Source: an uncultured Ureaplasma sp.
GTDB lineage: Bacteria > Bacillota_I > Bacilli_A > Mycoplasmatales > Mycoplasmoidaceae
Length of the DNA stretch: 64,000 nucleotides
NCBI GenBank assembly: GCA_902766725.1
Contig: CACXEQ010000024.1
Coordinates: forward strand, 13,577 to 77,576
Reading direction: 5' to 3'
Shown here: positions 1 through 11,037 of the stretch, piece after piece
Position numbering within the stretch: position 1 is the first letter of the stretch
Layout of the letters: each line of letters opens with the position of its first letter
Notes under the pieces: generated by a model
Databases searched by the model: none
Told to the model about the DNA's origin: nothing
Seen by the model: the letters and a program-made list of their open reading frames with translations, nothing else
Translations under genes and position numbers: made by a program

Positions 1-1964
1 TCATTATCTTTTAAGCTAAGAGCAATTTTTCCATTACGATTAATATGTTCATATTCTGTCAATTCAGTTCGTTTAACAATTCCATTGCATGAACAAAATA
101 ATAATGATTTATTTTTTTCATATTCATCAATTGGTAGCATTGTAACAATCTTTTCATCTTTTTGAATAGGAATAAAATTTATTGCTGGTACACCTTTTGC
201 TTGTTTAGAACCTACAGGAATCTCATGTCCTCTTAGTCGATAAATTTTTCCATAATTAGTAAAAATTAAAATATCTGTATGAGTGTTAGCAATAATAATT
301 TTAGCTACATTATCATCATTATGAACAGCAGTTCCAGTTACTCCTACTCCACCACGATGTTGTGTTTTATATTCACCAATTGGTAATCGTTTTAGATAAC
401 CACGTGTAGACATGGTAATAACAATATCTTCTATTGGAATTAAGTCTTCATCATCAATACAAGAACTTAAATTGTAGGCAATTTCTGTTTTTCTTTTATC
501 ACCAAAACGTTCAACTAATTTTTGTAAAACAGCAACAATGATAGCAATTTGCTTTTCGTGACTTTCTAAGATAGATTTATATTCATTACAATCTGCTTGT
601 AATTGGTTTATTTCAACAGTTATTTTAGATTGTTCAATATTAGATAAACTTTTTAATTTCATTTCTAAAATTGCTTTAGCTTGAATTTCTGATAATTGAT
701 AATCATTTCTTAATTGTATAAGAAGTTTTTTATCATCATTAGCTTTTCTAATTAGATTAATGATTTGTTCAATATGCTGACTAGCAATATGCAATCCTTC
801 TAAAATATGTAAACGATTATTAGCTTTTTCTAAATCAAATTGGGTTTTTCTAGTTAAGACATTAATTTGATGTTTTAGATAGATTTGTAGACAATCTTTC
901 ATAGATAAGATTTGAGGTTGACCATCTACTAAAGATAGCATGTTAACAGCAAAGTTAGTTTGCAATTGTGACATTTTAAACAATTGGTTAAGAACAACCT
1001 CAGGAACTACATCTCTTCTTAATTCAATTACTATTCTAATTCCTAATCTATTAGATTCATCACGTAGATCTGTAATACCATCAATTTTACCATCTTTTAC
1101 TAATTGTGTTATTTTTTCAATTAACTGTGTCTTATTAACAATATAAGGAATTTCATTGACAATTATTTTTGGTTTGCCATTATCACTATATTCAATATTA
1201 CATTTTGATCTTACTGTAATAGAACCTTTACCTGTTTCAAAATATTGTTTAATATTACTTGCCCCAATAATAGTAGCACCAGTGGGGAAATCTGGTCCTT
1301 TTATTACTTGTAACAAATCATCTGTTGTACATTCTGGTTTTTTAGCTACCAATTCTACTCCAGCAGCTATTTCAGTTAAGTTATGAGGGGGAATATTAGT
1401 AGCCATTCCAACTGCAATACCACTTGATCCATTTGCTAATAAATTAGGAAATATGGATGGTAAAACAACAGGTTCTTTTTCTGAACCATCATAGTTATCA
1501 ATTAAATCAACAGTATTTTTCTCAATATCACTTAGCATAGTGTCAGCTATTTTAGACATTTTTGCTTCTGTATAACGCATAGCAGCAGCACCATCTCCAT
1601 CAATAGATCCAAAGTTTCCATGACCATCGATTAATGGATAACGCATACTAAAATCTTGGGCTAATCTTACCATTGTTTCATAAACAGCTGTGTCACCATG
1701 AGGATGATATTTACCAATTACTTCACCAACTAGTCTAGCAGATTTTTTATATTGACTATTTGAAGTCATACCTAAATTTCATGCTGCATACAAAACACGA
1801 CGATGAACAGGTTTAAATCCATCTCTAGCATCAGGTAAAGCACGAGCGACAATGACACTCATAGCATAATCAAGAAATGAAGTTTTTAATTCATTAGATA
1901 TTTCTTTTTCTTCAACATGTGATTTATTAAGTAAATCACGAATATTATTTGAATTGTTTTCCAT
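1..1964 (-). CDS. gyrA: DNA gyrase subunit A (N-terminal ~654 codons; 3' end lies outside the window)
   Basis: The ATG at 1964 opens MENNSNN...[25 protein letters not shown], the GyrA-type KPVHRR signature. The frame stays open down to base 1 when TGA is read as Trp. The gene lies directly downstream of gyrB. Confidence 0.93.
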
Positions 1965-1975
1965 ATTTAATTCTC

Positions 1976-3925
<1,950 letters not shown>

Positions 3926-4009
3926 TCAATCCACTCTTTCTTAGTTAAATTAAAAAATAAAATAATGTGATAATTATATATAAAATCCGCATTAAAAATT
4001 TATTTTTTT

Positions 4010-4032
4010 ATACCAATATAAAATATTGGTAT
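4010..4032. repeat. Perfect 10-bp inverted repeat (ATACCAATAT-aaa-ATATTGGTAT) between fpg and gyrB
   Basis: Read directly from the sequence. On the + strand it is preceded by a T-run, so on the minus (coding) strand it is followed by an A-run. It is therefore not a canonical intrinsic terminator for fpg and could be an operator or an RNA hairpin. Confidence 0.5.
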
Positions 4033-4056
4033 AAATAATTAACTAAATGAAAAAAA

Positions 4057-4893
4057 TTAGTCTGAAATTTTTTGACAATTAGGACAAAAATATGTTCCTC
4101 GACCATTTATTTTTATTTTTTTAATTTTTCTATGGCAAATAAAACATGTTTTATTTTCTTGACTATGAACTTTTAAGTATTTTTGAAAATTACCTGCATG
4201 GTGGGGAGCAAAAGCATAACTAGAAATAGTTGTCCCGTGATTTTTTATGGCTAGTTGCATAATTTTTTGGCAATATTTAATGATATTTTTACATTGTAAT
4301 AATTTTAGTTTGTGACCTTTTGTTAAAGGGTGAATATGACATGCAAACAAAATTTCATCTGCATATATGTTTCCAATCCCTGCAATAATAGATTGGTCTA
4401 GTAAAATTGTTTTAATAGGACTATGTAATGAATGGATTTTATTGTAGAAGTAAGTAGCAGTCAATTGTTTGTCAAAAGGTTGTAATCCTAGTTTTTTAAT
4501 TTCAGATGAATTAAGTAAATCTTTTTTAGACAAATATAAGTTAAATGTTCCAAATTTACGAAAATCAAGGTAAATTAATTTTTTCTGTCCACAAATTATT
4601 TCCACCATGCAATATTTTGGGTTAGTCAAGTTGGAATCAATATAAAATAATTTACCTTCCATTCTTAGATGAATTGTTAAAAATACATCGTGATTTAATT
4701 GCATAATAATTAATTTTCCAATTTGGTTGATATTGATAATTTTTTTGCCAATTAAATTTTTCTTAAATGTGTTAACAGATGTATTTTTTAAGATTTTGGC
4801 ATCAAAGAAATTAATTTTGTTGATGGTTTTGTTTAATAAACCTTGTTGCATTAAGTTATCAATGAATGTTTTAACTTCTGGAAATTCTGGCAT
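4057..4893 (-). CDS. mutM: Formamidopyrimidine-DNA glycosylase
   Basis: 278-aa ORF with the N-terminus MPEFPEVKT (catalytic Pro2/Glu3). It has a C-terminal zinc finger CFICHRKIKKIKINGRGTYFCPNCQ. Confidence 0.9.
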   Translation of the reverse strand: MPEFPEVKTFIDNLMQQGLLNKTINKINFFDAKILKNTSVNTFKKNLIGKKIININQIGKLIIMQLNHDVFLTIHLRMEGKLFYIDSNLTNPKYCMVEIICGQKKLIYLDFRKFGTFNLYLSKKDLLNSSEIKKLGLQPFDKQLTATYFYNKIHSLHSPIKTILLDQSIIAGIGNIYADEILFACHIHPLTKGHKLKLLQCKNIIKYCQKIMQLAIKNHGTTISSYAFAPHHAGNFQKYLKVHSQENKTCFICHRKIKKIKINGRGTYFCPNCQKISD

Positions 4894-5333
4894 TATTTCA
4901 TCCTTTTAGCATCTTGATAATATTTGATGGCAGTAGAAGAAATGTTAAGCAATTTCTTTCTAGGTAAAATAAACATTGTTTCAATTGACTTATTTAACCT
5001 ATAGTTAGCTTTAGCAATATTAGTTTCATAAATAGTATCTTTTATGTTTCTTATTCCTCTGATAATGACAGAAATACCATTTTTTTTAGCAAAAGTTGTG
5101 GTTAATTTTTTATTGCTTATAACAAGAACATTTTTCAAATGAAGTTTTTGAATGACTTTTTTAGCCTTATCTAATCTTGCTTGAATGGTATTTGAATTAT
5201 TTTTATAGATATTAATTGAAACAACCACATATAACATATCAAATATTTTGCTACATCTTTTAATAACATCTAGATGCCCAGTATGAATTGGATCAAATGA
5301 CCCTGGATACATTGCTTTAATTTGTTTATGCAT
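4893..5333 (-). CDS. coaD: Phosphopantetheine adenylyltransferase
   Basis: 146-aa ORF. MYPGSFDPIHTGHLDVI matches the nucleotidyltransferase H-x-G-H motif of CoaD. It overlaps the fpg start by 1 nt. Confidence 0.9.
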   Translation of the reverse strand: MHKQIKAMYPGSFDPIHTGHLDVIKRCSKIFDMLYVVVSINIYKNNSNTIQARLDKAKKVIQKLHLKNVLVISNKKLTTTFAKKNGISVIIRGIRNIKDTIYETNIAKANYRLNKSIETMFILPRKKLLNISSTAIKYYQDAKRMK

Positions 5334-5389: not shown

Positions 5390-6364
5390 ATGAGTAAAAC
5401 AATAAATATAATGAAAAATATTATTAAATCTTCAGGCAGAAAACCTAGAATTGTTTTTGCCGAAGGTGATAATGCTTATATTTTGCAAGCTGTGCAAGAA
5501 ATTAAAAATGATATTGAACCAATTTTAATTTTTAAAACAAAAAAAGATATTCCAGCTAATTGTGAATTTAAAACAATTGCTATTGATTCTATTGATTTAT
5601 CAAAATATGCTAATTTATTAGTAGAACTTAGAAAACAAAAAGGAATGACATTAGAGCAAGCTAATAAATTAGTTCGATGCTCTAATTATTTAGCTAGTTT
5701 AATTGTTAAATGTAATGAAGCAGATGGGGAAATATGTGGAATAGATTATACTACTGCTGATACATTGAGACCAGCATTACAAATATTAAAAACTGCCCCA
5801 GGAGCAAAAATTGTTTCTTCTGTGTTTATTTTAGAAAAAAATGATGATATATCAGTTTTTTCTGATTGTGCGATCAATATTAATCCAGATGCACAATCTT
5901 TAGCTAATATGACTGAAATGGCATGTGATTTTGTAAAAAATGTTTTAGGTATTAATAAACCTAAAGCTGCTTTATTAAGTTATTCAACATGTGGTAGTGG
6001 TAAAGGTGAGGATGTAGATAAAGTAAGACATGCATTTGAAATAATCAAACAAAATCCTAAAAATGAGCAATATGACATTTTTGGTGAAATGCAATTTGAT
6101 GCTGCTTATGATGATAGAGTTAGAGCTAAAAAAGCAAAAAGTTGTACTTGAGATCATAAACCAGATATTTTTATGTTTCCTAACATTAATGCTGGCAATA
6201 TAGGTTGTAAGATTGCTCAAAGAATGGGTGGCTATGATGCTTTTGGACCAATTTTAGTTGGTTTAGCTGCTCCAGTTAATGATCTTTCAAGAGGAGCAAC
6301 TGTTCAAGATATTATTGGAGTTTCATACATAACTGCTGTCCAAATAATTAGTAGTAAAAAATAA
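5390..6364 (+). CDS. pta: Phosphate acetyltransferase
   Basis: Track ORFs 5390..6151 and 6173..6364 are in the same frame and are joined through one TGA. The Pta-like C-terminus is FPNINAGNIGCKIAQRMGGYDAFGPILVGLAAPVNDLSRGA. Confidence 0.9.
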
Positions 6365-6775: not shown

Positions 6776-7211
6776 GATGTGTATATATTTGAATTATGTT
6801 CTAATGTAATTAACATGCAAACTCCAAAATAATTAATGACAGATGAACCATACTAATTTTTAGTTAATTTATTTGAATTTATTAGCATTCAACTTTTATA
6901 AGTTATTACATAAAATATTTATAATTAATTTGTTTATTGTTCAGAAAATTTTAGCAATATTAATAATAAATTAAAACAATTGATTTAACATCAAGATGAT
7001 TATTGAATTTTCGTCTTAAAATAAAAATATGAATATTAAATGTAATTAGTTAAATCGCATTTACTTAAATAAAGCTAATTTTATTTAAAAAATCAGGTAA
7101 ATATGCGAGATTTAGTATTGTTTTTATGATTTTATTTAAATTCTTGAACCCCATATTTTGAAAAATAATATAGGATACTTCTTTGTGAAATTTGATGCAT
7201 TATTTGTTTCA

Positions 7212-7219
7212 TTTTTTTT
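7212..7219. repeat. Homopolymer T8 (A8 on the coding strand) inside the endonuclease gene, distal tract
   Basis: Counted directly: a7211, t7212-t7219, g7220. The frame change between the catalytic core and the C-terminal EcoRI-like tail maps here. A7 or A10 would restore the frame. Confidence 0.85.
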
Positions 7220-7668
7220 GATTCAAATGGGTGTTTGTTGAAAATAAAAACTTTCTCTTTTTGTAAATTCTGTATTAAACAAATTAATTTTGTTTATTTC
7301 ACCAAATTCAGCAATAATAATTATTCGATCAAGAATTGTTGATTTGTCATTAAAATCTCACCCCCATCCAAAGCAAACATATGGAAATATTGTTTCATCT
7401 TTTAACCATGTTCTAAAACCTATAATATTTTTTCCCAAGCGTTCAATTGCATTACCAGAAGCTTGTTTTTTTCCATTTGTTGCTATTATTTCATCATTAG
7501 TCCCTTGCTTTTTTTGTTCTGCAATTAAAATAGGATATTTATTACATGATTTATCGATAATAAACAATATACCACCATCAGGTTTCATTGATGAATTATC
7601 AAATTTATAATTCCATTGTTCGTTCGGGAACTTTTTTCTTAATTTTTCAACAATATCTTTAAGTGTGA

Positions 7669-7676
7669 TTTTTTTT
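7669..7676. repeat. Homopolymer T8 (A8 on the coding strand) inside the endonuclease gene, proximal tract
   Basis: Counted directly: a7668, t7669-t7676, c7677. With A8 the N-terminal frame ends 30 nt downstream. A9 or A6 would read HEKKITLKDIVEKLRKKF...KPDGG continuously. Confidence 0.9.
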
Positions 7677-7838
7677 CATGATAAATAGTAATATTAAATT
7701 CATTTTGCAATTTTTTTCTTAAATCTGATGTTATATCATAAATTAATTTATCCATACCAGTAGAAATCTTTGTAAGTGCTTTACCACCACCTAATTTTTG
7801 TAAAATTGATGATATTTTTTTACTATTAGACATTTTGT

Positions 7839-8442
7839 TTATGTACCTCTTACTCGACTTTTGTACATTCTGCTAGGAACATAATTATTTTTTGCATTAT
7901 TATTCTTAATATGTACGAAAATTAAATCTCTTGGTAAAAAGTCATTTGAACAAATAAATGAAGAATTAAAACTTGATGGTTTTCCATTAAAAGAGACTCG
8001 TTTATCTACAATTAACAATTGACATTTGTTATCAGCAAAATAATTACCTATACATTGATAATTGAGTGCCATAATATTCATAATCATTGCTCATGGTTTT
8101 TTAAATGAATTTAATCTTTTAAAAACTTCAAGTTTTTTAGAAAATGGTGGGTTACTTAAAGCAATATCTCATAATTTTGGTTGTCATTTAAAAAAATCTT
8201 TTCCATCTCATTTATGAGAACAAATATATTTGAAACCATACTTTCTACAAAAATATGTAAATTCACTATTTTTAGTATCAAAAGGTAATCAAATTATTGG
8301 ATTGCGTTTTAATTGTTTAGAATGTTTTTTGACAAGTCTATCTATATATATATATATATATAGATATAGATTCAACTAAAATTTTTGGAGTAAACAACTC
8401 GTCATTTTTATTTTTAACTGCTTGTTTAATTGAATACACCAT
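7839..8442 (-). pseudogene. EcoRI-methylase-like N6-adenine DNA methyltransferase, out of frame at an internal (TA)10 tract (OFF state or pseudogene)
   Basis: The ATG at 8442 gives MVYSIKQAVKNKNDELFTPKILVESISIYIYIYR and then a TAG at 8338..8340. The next frame is open from 8375 to 7839 and reads ...IDRLVKKHSKQLKRNPIIWLPFDTKNSEFTYFCRKYGF...WDIALSNPPFSKKLEVFKRLNSFKKPWAMIMNIMAL...RVSFNGKPSSFNSSFICSN. Its landmarks parallel M.EcoRI: DELFTP vs DEFYTQ, a D-x3-S-x-F-x2-(Y)F segment, and the NPPF catalytic motif followed by a helper helix. ATG to stop is 604 nt, which is 3n+1. Confidence 0.75.
8343..8362. repeat. (TA)10 dinucleotide microsatellite inside the methyltransferase coding region
   Basis: Read directly: tc-(ta)x10-gatataga. 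Adding one unit (606 nt) or removing two units (600 nt) fuses the two methyltransferase reading frames into a 201- or 199-codon ORF. Confidence 0.95.
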
Positions 8443-8459
8443 AACGATATTAAATTATA

Positions 8460-8864
8460 TTATTTGTTATTATTTTTATGAAAATTATCTGATAAACCAC
8501 CGCATATAAGTTTACTAAATATTTTTTTAACTTTATGTTTTATGGTCTTTCTAGTTTGACTATTATTAATTTTTAATCAACTTTTCTTAATAACATCTGA
8601 ATTATTTACTAAAATTGGTTTATGAATTCAAATATATGTATCATATTTAAAAGAATTATTCAATTTTTTTGAAATTTTGATGCAACATTTTTTATTATAT
8701 TTATCAATTTTTGTTGAACAATAAAAACAAAACATTTTATGTGATAAATATTTAGATTTATTACATCATATTAAAATAGGACGTTTCTTTTTGTTTGAAA
8801 CATTTTCATATGGATTATATTGTCATTCATATACTCATCGTATTTGAAGATGCAAATTTTTCAT
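8460..8864 (-). CDS. Hypothetical Cys-rich protein (134 aa), first gene of the R-M cassette
   Basis: The ATG at 8864 gives an ORF with no TAA/TAG for 135 codons in a very AT-rich context (five TGA read as Trp). The product is MKNLHLQIRWVYEWQYNPYENVSNKKKRPILIWCNKSKYLSHKMFCFYCSTKIDKYNKKCCIKISKK... It is co-oriented with the methyltransferase and ends 17 nt upstream of its ATG. I do not recognise any family. Confidence 0.6.
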
Positions 8865-9004
8865 TTTTATCTATAAATGAGCCACCGTGGGCTCGGGGTG
8901 AAAGGAGTATCTAACGACACAACATTTCGTAAATATTATATATAAAAGTTAAATTAGGTTATTAAAAAATTATTTTTAATATTTAATATTTTTTATTCTT
9001 TATT

Positions 9005-9730
9005 TTAATTGTTTTTATATAGTTTAGATGCAATATCATGAAATATGATACCAGCAGCAGTGGAAGCATTTAAAGATTGAGTTTTTCCAAATTGTTCAAT
9101 ATAAATTTTAAAATCACAATTTTTTACAACCAATGGAGAAATACCTTTATCTTCATTTCCTATAACTATTGCTACTTTTCCTTGAAATTTTATATTACAT
9201 AATTTATGGGCTATTTTATCTATGCAACTTGCATATACTCAATAACCATTTTGTTTCAATTGATTAATAGCATTGACTAAATTTATAGTTTTAATCATGT
9301 AAATATTGTTTATAGCACCAGCTGATGCTTTAATAACACTAGGGGTAATTTGCACTTGGCGATCTTTTCTATAAATTATTCCTTCTGCACCAAATATTTC
9401 TGCTGAACGAATTATGTTACCAAAGTTCATTGGATCAACAATTGAATCAACTAAGACCACATAATTATTTTTTTTATTTTTGATTTTTTGTAAAAAATTA
9501 GTTAAGTCCATATTGTTGTTTTTAGTGACAACATATCCAATAGCAAATTGATGATTACTAATATTAGTCATTTTTTGGTAAAATGATTTGTCATTATTGA
9601 TTGTTATATCATGACAATTTTGTCTAACAATTTTTAAAAAATTCTTATCTTTATCACTAGTTATTACTTTTTGTAATGATTTATTAGCTATTGCATCCAA
9701 TATAGCTTTTTTTCCTATGATAATATTCAT
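9005..9730 (-). CDS. SpoU/TrmH-family RNA 2'-O-methyltransferase (RlmB-like)
   Basis: Track ORF 9239..9730 is extended through one TGA to a TAA at 9005 (242 codons). The C-terminal SPOUT motifs are VAIVIGNEDKGISPLV and EQFGKTQSLNASTAAGIIFHD. Confidence 0.85.
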
Positions 9731-9732
9731 AT

Positions 9733-11037
9733 TTATAAAAGATTTATTTCTTGTAATTTATTTCTTATTGCATCTATTTTTTTATAATCTTTGCTATTAA
9801 TAGTTTTTTTTCATTCATCTATTAAATTTTGATATTTTTGATGATTAAATATATCTCATTTGATCCCTAAGATATTTAGTTCATCTCCTATTGTAAAATA
9901 TAACTTATTAACATTGACTCAGTTATTGTTTCTAAGATTAATATTTAGTTGTTTAATTTCATCAAGAATTAAACTAATAGCAATTGGTAAGTTTAAATCA
10001 TTATCTAGAGCCTTAGCAAATTTAGGATTAAGTTTAGATACATATGTTTGGTATTTATTATTAGCTAATAAGTAAGTTTTAGCAACAGCTAAAGTTTTGA
10101 TTATTTTATTTATCTCAACATTAGATTCATGTAACATTTTAGTGGAGTAATTAATTGGACGTTCATATTTAGTGCGATAAAAAAATCAACGTAGACCATT
10201 AGCATTTTCATTAGTAATAATGTCTTTAACAAGAATGAAATTATTAAGAGATTTAGACATTTTTGCACCATCTACATTAACATGACCAATATGCATTCAT
10301 ATATCAGCTATGTCTTTATTAAACAAAGCAAAATTTTGAGCATTTTCATTTTCATGATGAGGAAATTTTAAATCTATTCCACCACCATGAATAGTTACAT
10401 GATCACCTATAAGCATATTGATTAAGACACAGCATTCTGTATGCCAACCTGGACGCCCTTTTGATCATGGCGAATCTCAATTAATTCCAATATCTGTTTT
10501 CTTTCATAAAGCAAAATCAAGAGGATATTTTTTGTTTTCTTTATTTTCTTTTCTTGCACCATCTAGTAATTCATTAATGTTTTTATGACTTACATGACCA
10601 TAATTGGGAATTTTTTGGATATCAAAATATACATCACCATTAGCCGCATAAGCTGCACCTTTAGCCACTAATTTTTTAATGTATTCGATAATATCATCAA
10701 TATGATCAGATACTTTAGGCATGATTAATTTTTTAATATTTAATAAATCAAATAATTCTAAATATGCATTTAAATATTTTGTTGATAATTCTTTTTCTGT
10801 AATATTAGCCTTACTAGCGGCAGCAATTATTTTGTCATCAACATCAGTGATATTATGAACAAATTTAACATTTTTACCTAATTTTAACAAATACCGATGT
10901 AAAACATCAAAAATAATTAATGGTCGAACATTTCCGATGTGAACATAGTTATAAACTGTAGGACCACAATTATAAATAGTTATGTTTTGATGTTTTAATT
11001 CATATTCTTTTTTAGTACTAGAACTATAAATTTTCAT
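9733..11037 (-). CDS. cysS: Cysteine--tRNA ligase
   Basis: The N-terminus is [39 protein letters not shown], with a class I HIGH-type motif. Track fragments 10504..11037 and 9919..10137 share the frame. The total is 435 codons with TGA = Trp. Confidence 0.93.

What the first reader, a model, noticed from the sequence alone, without database searches (positions are those of the whole stretch)
7132..8864. Three-gene EcoRI-like R-M cassette in which both enzymes are switched off at simple-sequence repeats
A co-oriented minus-strand cassette lies between the pta operon and the cysS-rlmB operon. It reads unknown Cys-rich ORF, then a small NPPF N6-adenine methyltransferase, then an EcoRI-family endonuclease. 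The methyltransferase is out of frame exactly at an internal (TA)10 tract. The endonuclease is out of frame at two A8 tracts. Conserved motifs are intact on both sides of every break: DELFTP and NPPF in the methyltransferase, and KPDGG, AEQK and GNAIER in the endonuclease. This suggests recent or reversible inactivation rather than long decay. Type II R-M systems are usually described as constitutive, so one with repeat-mediated switches in both genes would be an unusual phase-variable (phasevarion-like) arrangement.
Basis: partly seen in the sequence, partly recalled or inferred. Interest (0 to 1): 0.8.

Follow-up and report, generated by a model that had tools for sequence, protein, structure and literature searches.

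The report
Repeat-switched EcoRI-like restriction-modification cassette, endonuclease dead
A small mycoplasma-type restriction-modification gene pair has a methylase gene that a (TA) repeat can switch on and off, as in many related mycoplasmas, whereas its EcoRI-like cutting enzyme looks like a recently broken gene, not a second switch.

Summary
On the minus strand lie a 134-aa unknown ORF, a ~200-aa NPPF adenine methylase split at (TA)10, and a 233-aa EcoRI-family endonuclease split at two A8 runs.

- **Methylase switch: supported.** All 14 mollicute lineages recovered carry a simple repeat in the 5' part of this gene: (TA)8-12, (AG)11-16 or C10. None of about 150 non-mollicute homologues shows this pattern. 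The tract is 10 or 9 units in near-identical genomes. dN/dS is 0.09-0.15, so the gene is in use.
- **Endonuclease switch: not supported.** A8 runs are ordinary here (47 in 64 kb). They are absent at these sites in relatives and invariant in all five copies. Two simultaneous slips would be needed, so this is most likely a recent pseudogene.
- **Third gene: not part of the system.** The upstream ORF is absent from most related cassettes.

Repeat-switched Type II methylases in mycoplasmas are already published (M. hominis MhoVII, M. agalactiae CpG methylase), so this is a new member of a known kind. One puzzle remains: most relatives have the methylase OFF next to an intact endonuclease.

The parts
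7839..8442 (-). Methylase gene (M). It encodes a ~200-aa gamma-type N6-adenine DNA methylase and is currently out of frame (OFF).
   Evidence: The frame-corrected 201-aa protein carries DELFTP (motif X-like) and SNPPFS (motif IV). It has 98 homologues of about 190-200 aa, and 35 of 47 hit PF13651 EcoRI_methylase. A model of homologue P0123 has pLDDT 91, and its best structural matches are M.TaqI and the BsaXI methylase domain.
8343..8362 (-). (TA)10 tract inside M, between motif X and the first beta strand. This is the putative phase switch.
   Evidence: It is the only long microsatellite in the window. M is ON at 8 or 11 units and OFF at 9, 10 or 12. The tract is 10 units in the window, L001 and L002, and 9 in L003. 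Equivalent TA, AG or C tracts occur in all mollicute relatives.
8338..8340 (-). Premature stop codon reached in the current (TA)10 phase.
   Evidence: The N-terminal frame reads ...ISIYIYIYR*.
7132..7833 (-). EcoRI-family Type II endonuclease gene (R), broken by two frameshifts.
   Evidence: Pfam PF02963 at 54.2 bits, PADLOC REase_II at 6e-21, and EcoRI structure chains at 2e-12. The corrected 233-aa protein keeps the invariant P85-D86, E106 and K108 and the motif G127-N-A-I-E-R132.
7669..7676 (-). A8 run at the first frameshift in R; one more base is needed to restore the frame.
   Evidence: A9 restores HEKKITLKDIV. The run is A8 in all five copies. The closest relative has A7-T-A-TC here, so the lesion may be a lost T and not a slip.
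7212..7219 (-). A8 run at the second frameshift in R; one base fewer is needed to restore the frame.
   Evidence: A7 restores the conserved C-terminus ...RSILYYFSKYG. The run is A8 in all five copies. Relatives have no tract at this site.
8460..8864 (-). Upstream 134-aa Cys-rich ORF. It is a neighbour and probably not part of the R-M system.
   Evidence: It has no Pfam, NCBIfam or PADLOC match and only 9 homologues. It lies next to M-R only in the window clade and in L084-86. It is absent from the other related cassettes and occurs without M-R in L090, L093 and L095.

Best explanation
The locus is a two-gene Type II restriction-modification cassette. A minimal gamma-type N6-adenine methylase gene comes first, and an EcoRI-family endonuclease gene starts 5 nt after its stop codon. 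It belongs to a mollicute-specific lineage in which the methylase gene carries a hypermutable simple repeat between its N-terminal DELYTP motif and its first beta strand.

Slipped-strand mispairing changes the repeat number and moves the catalytic part of the protein in or out of frame (an inferred mechanism, as in other contingency genes). In this genome the methylase is in an OFF phase: (TA)10, with ON at 8 or 11 units. The endonuclease has separately been knocked out by two single-base frameshifts that are fixed in every available copy. The cassette therefore neither cuts nor methylates at present.

What selection still maintains is the switchable methylase, which may act as a phase-variable orphan methylase. 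That role is not shown. The endonuclease is a recent pseudogene and not a second switch. The upstream Cys-rich ORF is an unrelated neighbour.
For: Identity of the two proteins.

The repeat is a selected feature:
- All 14 mollicute lineages recovered have a repeat in the same 30-codon stretch. The repeat is of three kinds at three positions: (TA)8-12, (AG)11-16 and C10.
- Mollicute-type relatives without a repeat also exist (P0123, P0129, P0135). A remnant copy with only (TA)3, in frame, is present in L102.
- None of the 72 genome loci and 79 metagenome loci from other phyla has a dinucleotide or G/C repeat in the 5' part of the gene. Only stray homopolymers were seen: G8 mid-gene in L046, and A9/T9 in or near the gene in L118, L120 and L121. 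None has an adjacent EcoRI-type R.

The repeat is hypermutable:
- The window and L003 differ over 3 kb only by one TA unit, one SNP and an N-gap.
- L087 and L088 encode the same C-terminal protein but carry (AG)11 and (AG)>=14.

The methylase gene is in use: pairwise dN/dS for M is 0.09-0.15 at dS 0.5-1.3, including pairs in which both copies are OFF. The 24-aa N-terminal piece is conserved in every OFF copy.

The endonuclease is a pseudogene:
- Both tracts are A8 in all five copies.
- A8 runs are common in this genome.
- Relatives have no tract at these sites.
- The window R has a unique G194E change at a >=90% conserved position.
- dN/dS for R is 0.22-0.28 in pairs that include the window, against 0.11 between its two closest relatives.
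- R is also broken independently in L006 (in-frame stop) and L101 (frameshift).
Against: - No ON copy of a TA-type methylase was seen anywhere: 0 of 10 assessable states, and none among the 98 database hits. Switching to ON is therefore inferred and not observed for this repeat type.
- Only four copies of the window's own tract are available, and both observed lengths (10 and 9) are OFF.
- ON/OFF calls rest on assembly consensus. Repeat lengths in long-read genomes or metagenome-assembled genomes can be wrong.
- The five copies of the window locus are nearly clonal, so 'A8 invariant' covers little evolutionary depth.
- The window R shows no excess amino-acid divergence from outgroups, so its inactivation is recent and, in principle, reversible.
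- Methylase activity, target sequence and any regulatory role are untested. The window protein itself scores below the Pfam cut-off for PF13651 (20.5 against 26.4).
Confidence: 0.7

Rival explanations
1. One reading: both genes are reversible repeat switches. The methylase toggles at (TA)n and the endonuclease toggles at its two A8 tracts, giving a fully phase-variable Type II system.
For: - All three breaks lie at repeats, and the motifs on both sides are intact.
- R shows no excess divergence from outgroups.
- From my own knowledge, short poly(A) runs inside ORFs can phase-vary in mycoplasmas, which lack mismatch repair. I did not check this in the literature here.
Against: - Two independent slips (+1 and -1) are needed at the same time.
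- The tracts are invariant in five copies while the TA tract varies.
- A8 runs occur 47 times in 64 kb.
- Relatives have no long tract at either site, so nothing suggests selection for mutability there. The first lesion may be a lost T and not a slip.
- There are signs of relaxed constraint: G194E, and dN/dS of 0.22-0.28.
Confidence: 0.1
2. The whole cassette is dead and decaying. The TA tract is a neutral microsatellite that expanded after the methylase was first inactivated, with no switching function.
For: - Every TA-type copy seen is OFF, and both OFF phases are equally used (5:5:0).
- R decays repeatedly: in the window, L006, L101 and a second copy in L009.
- In the subset of loci found without regard to reading frame, 1 of 7 is ON. 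This does not differ significantly from the 1 in 3 expected by chance (my binomial, p about 0.26).
Against: - dN/dS of M is about 0.1 across TA-bearing OFF/OFF pairs separated by dS 0.5-1.1, which is incompatible with long neutral evolution.
- M has no lesion other than the repeat phase in any of 14 lineages.
- The short N-terminal ORF stays conserved.
- Three different repeat types arose in the same gene segment, and only in mollicutes.
- Neutral drift predicts the ON phase one third of the time. It was seen 0 times in 10, a nominal p of 0.017.
Confidence: 0.13
3. The frameshifts are homopolymer or dinucleotide sequencing or assembly errors, and both genes are really intact.
For: All three breaks are at error-prone repeats.
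Against: Four independent assemblies from different samples (ERZ913634, ERZ27279956, ERZ28614627, ERR3211443) reproduce A8/A8, and TA10 or TA9. Relatives assembled independently are also out of frame at their own repeats.
Confidence: 0.02

Closest known systems
MhoVII Type II R-M of Mycoplasma (Metamycoplasma) hominis, M2/DAM3 part (PMC10305163, PMC12898733)
   Same: A mollicute Type II system with a separate endonuclease gene. A (TA)n tract inside the adenine methylase coding region is translated as IY repeats. The tract length varies within strains and splits the protein, and the authors proposed it as a Type II 'phase-varion'.
   Different: MhoVII is a Type IIS-like system (GATG/CATC) with a fused two-domain methylase of the YhdJ and D12 classes. 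Its repeat lies in the target-recognition domain, so slippage truncates only one half. Here the methylase is a single 200-aa gamma-type domain, the repeat is near the 5' end so the switch is all or nothing, and the endonuclease is EcoRI-family.
Phase-variable Type III mod genes (phasevarions), e.g. MmyCI of M. mycoides subsp. capri with (AG)12 (PMC3498834) and the mod surveys (PMC5909438)
   Same: A dinucleotide repeat in the 5' part of an N6-adenine methylase ORF gives ON/OFF frames. The res/R partner is often degraded, and the systems are common in mollicutes.
   Different: In Type III systems Res needs Mod for activity, so Mod-OFF is harmless. Here R is a stand-alone EcoRI-type enzyme, for which methylase loss is expected to be toxic.
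Orphan CpG methylase of M. agalactiae, M. pulmonis and M. crocodyli with poly(G) or poly(GA) (PMC9465063)
   Same: A Type II-class methylase in mycoplasmas is switched by an intragenic repeat. Different repeat types are used in different species at the same gene position.
   Different: It is a C5-cytosine methylase with no endonuclease partner.
EcoRI R-M system of E. coli plasmids (structures 1ckq and 1eri; Pfam PF02963 and PF13651)
   Same: R shares the PD...E-x-K catalytic core and the GNAIER segment. M shares the N-terminal DE(F/L)(Y/F)T motif and NPPFS with M.EcoRI; the M.EcoRI sequence is recalled from memory, and the Pfam hit is weak.
   Different: R is 233 aa against 277 aa, with about 30% identity over 140 residues. 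M is 200 aa against 326 aa and lacks most of the C-terminal part. The gene order is M then R, with a repeat switch. The target sequence is unknown.
Short EcoRI-family endonucleases of other phyla, e.g. Paracoccus marcusii plasmid pCP157_17
   Same: The same 232-240-aa R subfamily (50% identity), with the methylase gene directly upstream and touching R.
   Different: The partner there is a 384-aa protein annotated 'DNA adenine methylase', which is not the small gamma-type methylase, and there is no repeat. Outside mollicutes the small methylase occurs alone, in phages and in what look like mobile elements.

Membership tests
EcoRI-family Type II restriction endonuclease (Pfam PF02963) | Profile score above the curated cut-off | tested here: met
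   54.2 bits against a cut-off of 22. EcoRI chains in the PDB match at E = 2e-12 over residues 28-166.
EcoRI-family Type II restriction endonuclease (Pfam PF02963) | Catalytic PD...(D/E)-x-K residues and the GNAIER segment | tested here: met
   P85, D86, E106, K108 and G127-N-A-I-E-R132 are invariant in 23 aligned sequences, including the corrected window protein.
EcoRI-family Type II restriction endonuclease (Pfam PF02963) | Uninterrupted reading frame, i.e. a functional gene | tested here: not met
   There are two frameshifts, at 7669-7676 and 7212-7219, present in all five copies.
EcoRI-family Type II restriction endonuclease (Pfam PF02963) | Sequence-specific cleavage, and the recognition site | not testable with these tools
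   GAATTC, CAATTG and AATT are not avoided in the window, which tells us nothing because R is dead here.
Gamma-class N6-adenine DNA methylase, EcoRI_methylase type (Pfam PF13651) | Profile score above the curated cut-off | tested here: inconclusive
   The window protein scores 20.5 bits against a cut-off of 26.4. Of 47 family members, 35 match at E <= 0.01, the best at 2.4e-7. PADLOC MTase_II matches at 1e-4.
Gamma-class N6-adenine DNA methylase, EcoRI_methylase type (Pfam PF13651) | Motif IV (N/D)PP(F/Y) and an N-terminal x-x-Y-T-P motif | tested here: met
   SNPPFS and T18-P19 are invariant across 47 sequences. A family profile aligns them with EFYTP and NPPFS of adenine methylase 7vru.
Gamma-class N6-adenine DNA methylase, EcoRI_methylase type (Pfam PF13651) | Class I SAM-methyltransferase fold resembling DNA adenine methylases | tested here: met
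   Tested on homologue P0123 (64% identity), not on the window protein. The model has pLDDT 91 and pTM 0.87. The top matches are BsaXI, M.TaqI and DrdV, with E from 2e-4 to 6e-3, but TM-scores are only about 0.45-0.5.
Gamma-class N6-adenine DNA methylase, EcoRI_methylase type (Pfam PF13651) | DNA methylation activity and target motif | not testable with these tools
   This needs expression of a frame-locked gene followed by methylome sequencing.
Repeat-mediated phase-variable (contingency) gene | A repeat inside the ORF whose unit changes shift the frame, placed near the 5' end | tested here: met
   (TA)10 starts at codon 27 of 201. M is ON at 8 or 11 units and OFF at 9, 10 or 12.
Repeat-mediated phase-variable (contingency) gene | Tract-length polymorphism among otherwise near-identical genomes | tested here: met
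   The tract is TA10 three times and TA9 once among copies that are at least 99.6% identical. AG11 and AG>=14 occur with an identical downstream protein. The sample is small.
Repeat-mediated phase-variable (contingency) gene | The gene is otherwise under purifying selection | tested here: met
   dN/dS is 0.09-0.15 for M in 8 pairs.
Repeat-mediated phase-variable (contingency) gene | Both ON and OFF states are observed | tested here: inconclusive
   AG type: L089 is ON; L007, L009 and L087 are OFF. C type: L015 is ON. TA type, which includes the window: 0 ON of 10 states.
Phasevarion (methylase-controlled phase-variable regulon) | Methylation-dependent change in expression of other genes | not testable with these tools
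   No expression or methylome data are available.
Three-gene R-M operon with a controller or accessory protein | The third gene is conserved with M and R and resembles a controller (helix-turn-helix) protein | tested here: not met
   The 134-aa ORF has no family match. It is absent from cassettes L005-L009, L015, L096-L102 and occurs without M-R in L090, L093 and L095.

The most novel reading that the evidence does not exclude
Mollicutes run a classical two-protein, EcoRI-type Type IIP restriction-modification system as a contingency locus. A repeat has been invented at least three separate times (TA, AG, C) in the methylase gene, and it keeps the methylase OFF in most natural populations. Meanwhile an intact, selectively maintained endonuclease gene with its own ribosome-binding site sits immediately downstream. 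This would mean that the endonuclease is harmless without its methylase. Possible reasons are that its expression or activity depends on translation of the methylase, or that a back-up methylase protects the genome. Either way it would contradict the textbook expectation that losing a Type II methylase kills the cell.
Probability: 0.3. Interest if true: 0.7.

Novelty: new member of a known kind. Interest (0 to 1): 0.5.

Why it matters
Phase-variable methylases are well documented for Type I and Type III systems, and reviews still describe them mainly in those terms (PMC12707154). For Type II systems with a separate endonuclease there are only a few proposals.

This family adds comparative evidence for such a switch:
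- three repeat types arose in one gene segment;
- dN/dS is about 0.1;
- tract lengths vary between near-identical genomes.

It also exists in two cultured species with complete genomes, Mycoplasmopsis lipophila MaBy and M. hyopharyngis H3-6B F. These could be used to test how a stand-alone endonuclease tolerates a methylase that is OFF.

For the window itself the practical message is modest. The endonuclease should be annotated as a pseudogene and the methylase as a frameshifted, possibly phase-variable gene. Neither should be annotated as a set of hypothetical fragments.

Tried and rejected
- **Table 11 ORF list.** It fragments every gene at TGA, so I re-did the analysis with table 4.
- **NCBIfam.** No match for any of the three proteins.
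- **Rfam.** Only one tRNA in the whole window at the gathering threshold, and nothing in 8400-9100 at E <= 1.
- **The search of protein representatives.** I used the last word-indexed search instead.
- **Restriction-site avoidance.** Counts of GAATTC, CAATTG, AATT and all other 4- and 6-base palindromes gave no signal.
- **Translational coupling through a hairpin that hides the ribosome-binding site of R.** The GGAGG pairs with an upstream CCUUC in 3 of 11 lineages. The fold energies equal those of shuffled sequences and the feature is not conserved, so I did not adopt it. R has its own Shine-Dalgarno-like sequence in several lineages.
- **Relative-rate test on R by amino-acid identity to outgroups.** No acceleration in the window lineage: 49.4% against 49.8% and 49.7%. 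The dN/dS comparison was more sensitive.
- **Organism name.** The window's own genome was not among the GTDB representatives, and the cluster look-up gave no name. The closest named relative is a Mycoplasma sp. metagenome-assembled genome, GCA_017959425.1.
- **Upstream ORF as a controller protein or second methylase subunit.** Rejected for lack of homology and lack of conserved linkage.
Full report
**1. What is in the sequence**

The window has 25% G+C, and conserved genes are interrupted by TGA under table 11. It therefore has to be read with genetic code 4, as in Mollicutes. With that code the minus strand between pta (5390-6364, plus strand) and an rlmB-like SpoU methylase plus cysS (9005-11037) contains three features (Pfam checks).

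- **An upstream ORF** of 134 aa at 8460-8864.
- **A methylase gene.** It starts at 8442 and runs into (TA)10 at 8343-8362. It stops at 8338-8340 in the current phase, but continues in another frame to 7839.
- **An endonuclease gene.** It starts at 7833, 5 nt after the methylase stop. It is broken at A8 runs at 7669-7676 and 7212-7219 and ends at 7132.

(TA)8 or (TA)11 restores a methylase of 199 or 201 aa. A9 at the first run plus A7 at the second restores a 233-aa endonuclease.

**2. Are the breaks real, and are the repeats special?**

Four independent metagenome contigs (L001-L004) are 99.6-100% identical to the window and show the same lesions. Both A runs are A8 in all five copies. The TA tract is 10 units in three copies and 9 in L003. 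Over 3 kb, L003 differs from the window only by that TA unit, one SNP and a scaffold gap. Sequencing error is therefore excluded, and the TA tract is the one hypermutable site.

(TA)10 is the only true microsatellite in the 64 kb. A8 is ordinary here: the window has 47 A8/T8 runs and 129 A7/T7 runs.

**3. What the proteins are**

*Endonuclease.* The corrected protein passes the Pfam EcoRI model (54 bits against a cut-off of 22). It matches EcoRI crystal-structure sequences at 2e-12 across the first frameshift junction. It belongs to a large family of 232-240-aa relatives, with 948 hits. It aligns with them end to end and keeps the invariant PD...E-x-K and GNAIER residues.

*Methylase.* The corrected protein has 98 homologues of about 190-200 aa.
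- Its own Pfam hit to EcoRI_methylase is below the cut-off (20.5 against 26.4).
- However, 35 of 47 family members hit that model.
- A family profile aligns DELYTP and NPPFS with the corresponding motifs of a solved adenine methylase.
- A confident model of a 64%-identical homologue (pLDDT 91) resembles M.TaqI, BsaXI and DrdV methylase domains most closely, although with modest TM-scores.

I treat it as a minimal gamma-type N6-adenine DNA methylase. Its activity and target are untested.

*Upstream ORF.* It has no family match and only nine homologues.

**4. Comparative evidence on the methylase repeat**

A scan of one genome per species returned 79 loci with a homologue of the methylase. Only the seven mollicute loci have an EcoRI-family gene directly downstream, and all seven have a simple repeat in the 5' part of the methylase gene. 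The 72 loci from other phyla have neither; the only repeat seen in them is a G8 run in mid-gene in L046. A metagenome scan gave the same picture: one mollicute locus with TA9 and R, and 79 others with no dinucleotide or G/C repeat and no R. Three low-GC contigs there have an A9 or T9 run in or near the gene. Contigs found through individual proteins added further lineages.

State of each lineage:

| Lineage | Repeat | M state | R state |
|---|---|---|---|
| Window clade | TA10 / TA9 | OFF | broken (two frameshifts) |
| L084-86 | TA8 | OFF | intact |
| L102 | TA9 | OFF | intact |
| L005, M. lipophila | TA11 | OFF | intact |
| L008, M. hyopharyngis | TA11 | OFF | intact |
| L006 | TA10 | OFF | broken (in-frame stop) |
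| L096/97 | TA8 | OFF | intact |
| L099/100 | TA9 | OFF | intact (L100 cut by contig end) |
| L101 | TA11 | OFF | broken (frameshift) |
| L098 | TA12 | 5' end cut | intact |
| L007 | AG14 | OFF | intact |
| L009 | AG16 | OFF | intact (plus a decayed second copy) |
| L087 | AG11 | OFF | cut by contig end |
| L089 | AG15 | ON | intact |
| L015 | C10 | ON | intact |

(States.)

The three repeat types sit at three different places within about 30 codons, between the DELYTP motif and the first beta strand. In the model this stretch is a helix. Related mollicute-type proteins without any repeat exist (P0123, P0129, P0135). L102 carries a remnant copy with only (TA)3, in frame. The repeats were therefore gained more than once, in one gene segment, and in one group of organisms.

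Pairwise dN/dS for the methylase is 0.09-0.15 at dS 0.5-1.3, including pairs in which both copies are OFF. The short N-terminal ORF is conserved in every OFF copy. Together these points make a selected, reversible switch much more likely than a dead gene with a neutral microsatellite.

**5. The endonuclease**

In relatives the endonuclease ORF is usually intact, with dN/dS of 0.11-0.30 and all catalytic residues present. At the two sites broken in the window, relatives have no long A run. The closest relative reads A7-T-A-TC at the first site, so the lesion may be a lost T that created the A8 and not a slip within it. It has no tract at the second site.

The window protein also has a unique G194E change at a position conserved in at least 90% of the family. 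Pairs that include the window show a higher dN/dS (0.22-0.28) than the pair formed by its two closest relatives (0.11). Against long decay, amino-acid distances to outgroups are not inflated.

My reading is a recent pseudogene. It is reversible in principle, but only by two simultaneous events, and nothing suggests that these runs are maintained as switches. R has also been lost independently in L006 and L101, and in a second copy in L009.

**6. The third gene**

The 134-aa ORF lies next to the cassette only in the window clade and in L084-86. The other cassettes sit in different genomic contexts without it. Its homologues also occur without any M or R nearby. The functional unit is M plus R.

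**7. What remains unexplained**

At least eight lineages show the methylase OFF next to an intact endonuclease that is under purifying selection. For an EcoRI-type pair this should be lethal. The genes touch or overlap (-11 to +5 nt), which would allow translational coupling. However, R has its own Shine-Dalgarno-like sequence in several lineages, and I found no conserved structure that hides it.

The ON phase was never seen for TA-type genes. The count is 0 of 10, with the two OFF phases used 5:5, and no full-length IY-containing protein appears among the 98 database hits. The nominal p is 0.017. This figure needs caution because the lineages are not fully independent, some were found through truncated protein calls, and in the frame-blind subset (1 ON of 7) the deficit is not significant.

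Possible explanations are that R is silent or inactive without M, that another methylase protects the genome, or that OFF-to-ON switching is itself lethal. None of these can be tested here.

**8. Comparison with what is known**

Repeat-driven switching of methylases is established for Type III and Type I systems (PMC5909438, PMC7383803, PMC3498834) and for Type IIG enzymes (PMC3936762). In mycoplasmas it has been shown or proposed for an orphan CpG methylase with poly(G) or poly(GA) (PMC9465063). It has also been proposed for the M2 part of M. hominis MhoVII, where a (TA)n tract is likewise read as IY repeats and was put forward as the first Type II 'phase-varion' (PMC10305163, PMC12898733).

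I found no description of the present family in the searchable literature, but that library is incomplete and REBASE could not be consulted.

Outside mollicutes the small methylase occurs alone, in phages and in what look like mobile elements. The short EcoRI-type endonuclease pairs with a different methylase there, annotated 'DNA adenine methylase'.

**9. Verdict**

This is a new member of a known kind of system. The window's own copy is currently inert, with M OFF and R dead. The family-level pattern is of moderate interest, mainly because of the convergent repeats and the unexplained coexistence of an OFF methylase with an intact endonuclease.

Noticed in passing
window ~8866-8950, minus strand (just upstream of the 134-aa ORF): A conserved 5' leader. 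A TATAAT-like box is followed by CCUCCUUUC (as I recall, identical to the anti-Shine-Dalgarno end of 16S rRNA), then a GAGCC-N6-GGCUC hairpin, then AUUUAUA and the ATG. It is unusually G+C-rich for this genome and is conserved in L084 and L090-L093. It has no Rfam match.
   Followed up: partly
window 8460-8864, minus strand: The 134-aa Cys-rich ORF (MKNLHLQIRWVYEW...) belongs to a tiny family: 9 homologues, all from metagenomes and mollicute-like, with no known domain. In L095 a frameshifted copy sits just upstream of the ribosomal protein L33 gene.
   Followed up: partly
L009 7687-8090: A second, heavily decayed copy of the EcoRI-family endonuclease, in fragments in three frames, lies about 2.3 kb downstream of the intact cassette.
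   Followed up: no
L102 3193-3290 and 1-1400: Downstream of R lies a remnant of the methylase 5' end. It has only (TA)3, is in frame (ESIYKLVKKL) and is fused to unrelated sequence, so it may be a pre-expansion state of the repeat. Upstream is a 460-aa ORF with a GNGFDL motif that reminded me of AbiH-type abortive-infection proteins (not tested). A similar ORF neighbours the Cys-rich ORF in L093.
   Followed up: no
L005, L008, L015 (about 30 nt upstream of the R start): The GGAGG ribosome-binding site of R can pair with the CCUUC that encodes the conserved Pro-Ser of the methylase C-terminus. This occurs in only 3 of 11 lineages, and the fold is no more stable than shuffled controls.
   Followed up: yes
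L016, L025, L035 and phage records H1-H12: Outside mollicutes the small methylase stands alone, in what look like mobile elements and in Campylobacter, Listeria, Thermus and Prochlorococcus phages. I read SSB- and ParB-like neighbours from sequence only, without testing. The gene is often mis-annotated as 'sugar-phosphate nucleotidyltransferase'.
   Followed up: partly
L118 ~1617, L120 ~634, L121 ~67: Three low-GC non-mollicute metagenome contigs have an A9 or T9 run in or just before their homologue of the small methylase gene.
   Followed up: no
window 1-5333: The context upstream of pta reads as gyrA, gyrB, a formamidopyrimidine-DNA glycosylase and coaD. gyrA and gyrB are my reading of the sequences and were not tested.
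   Followed up: no
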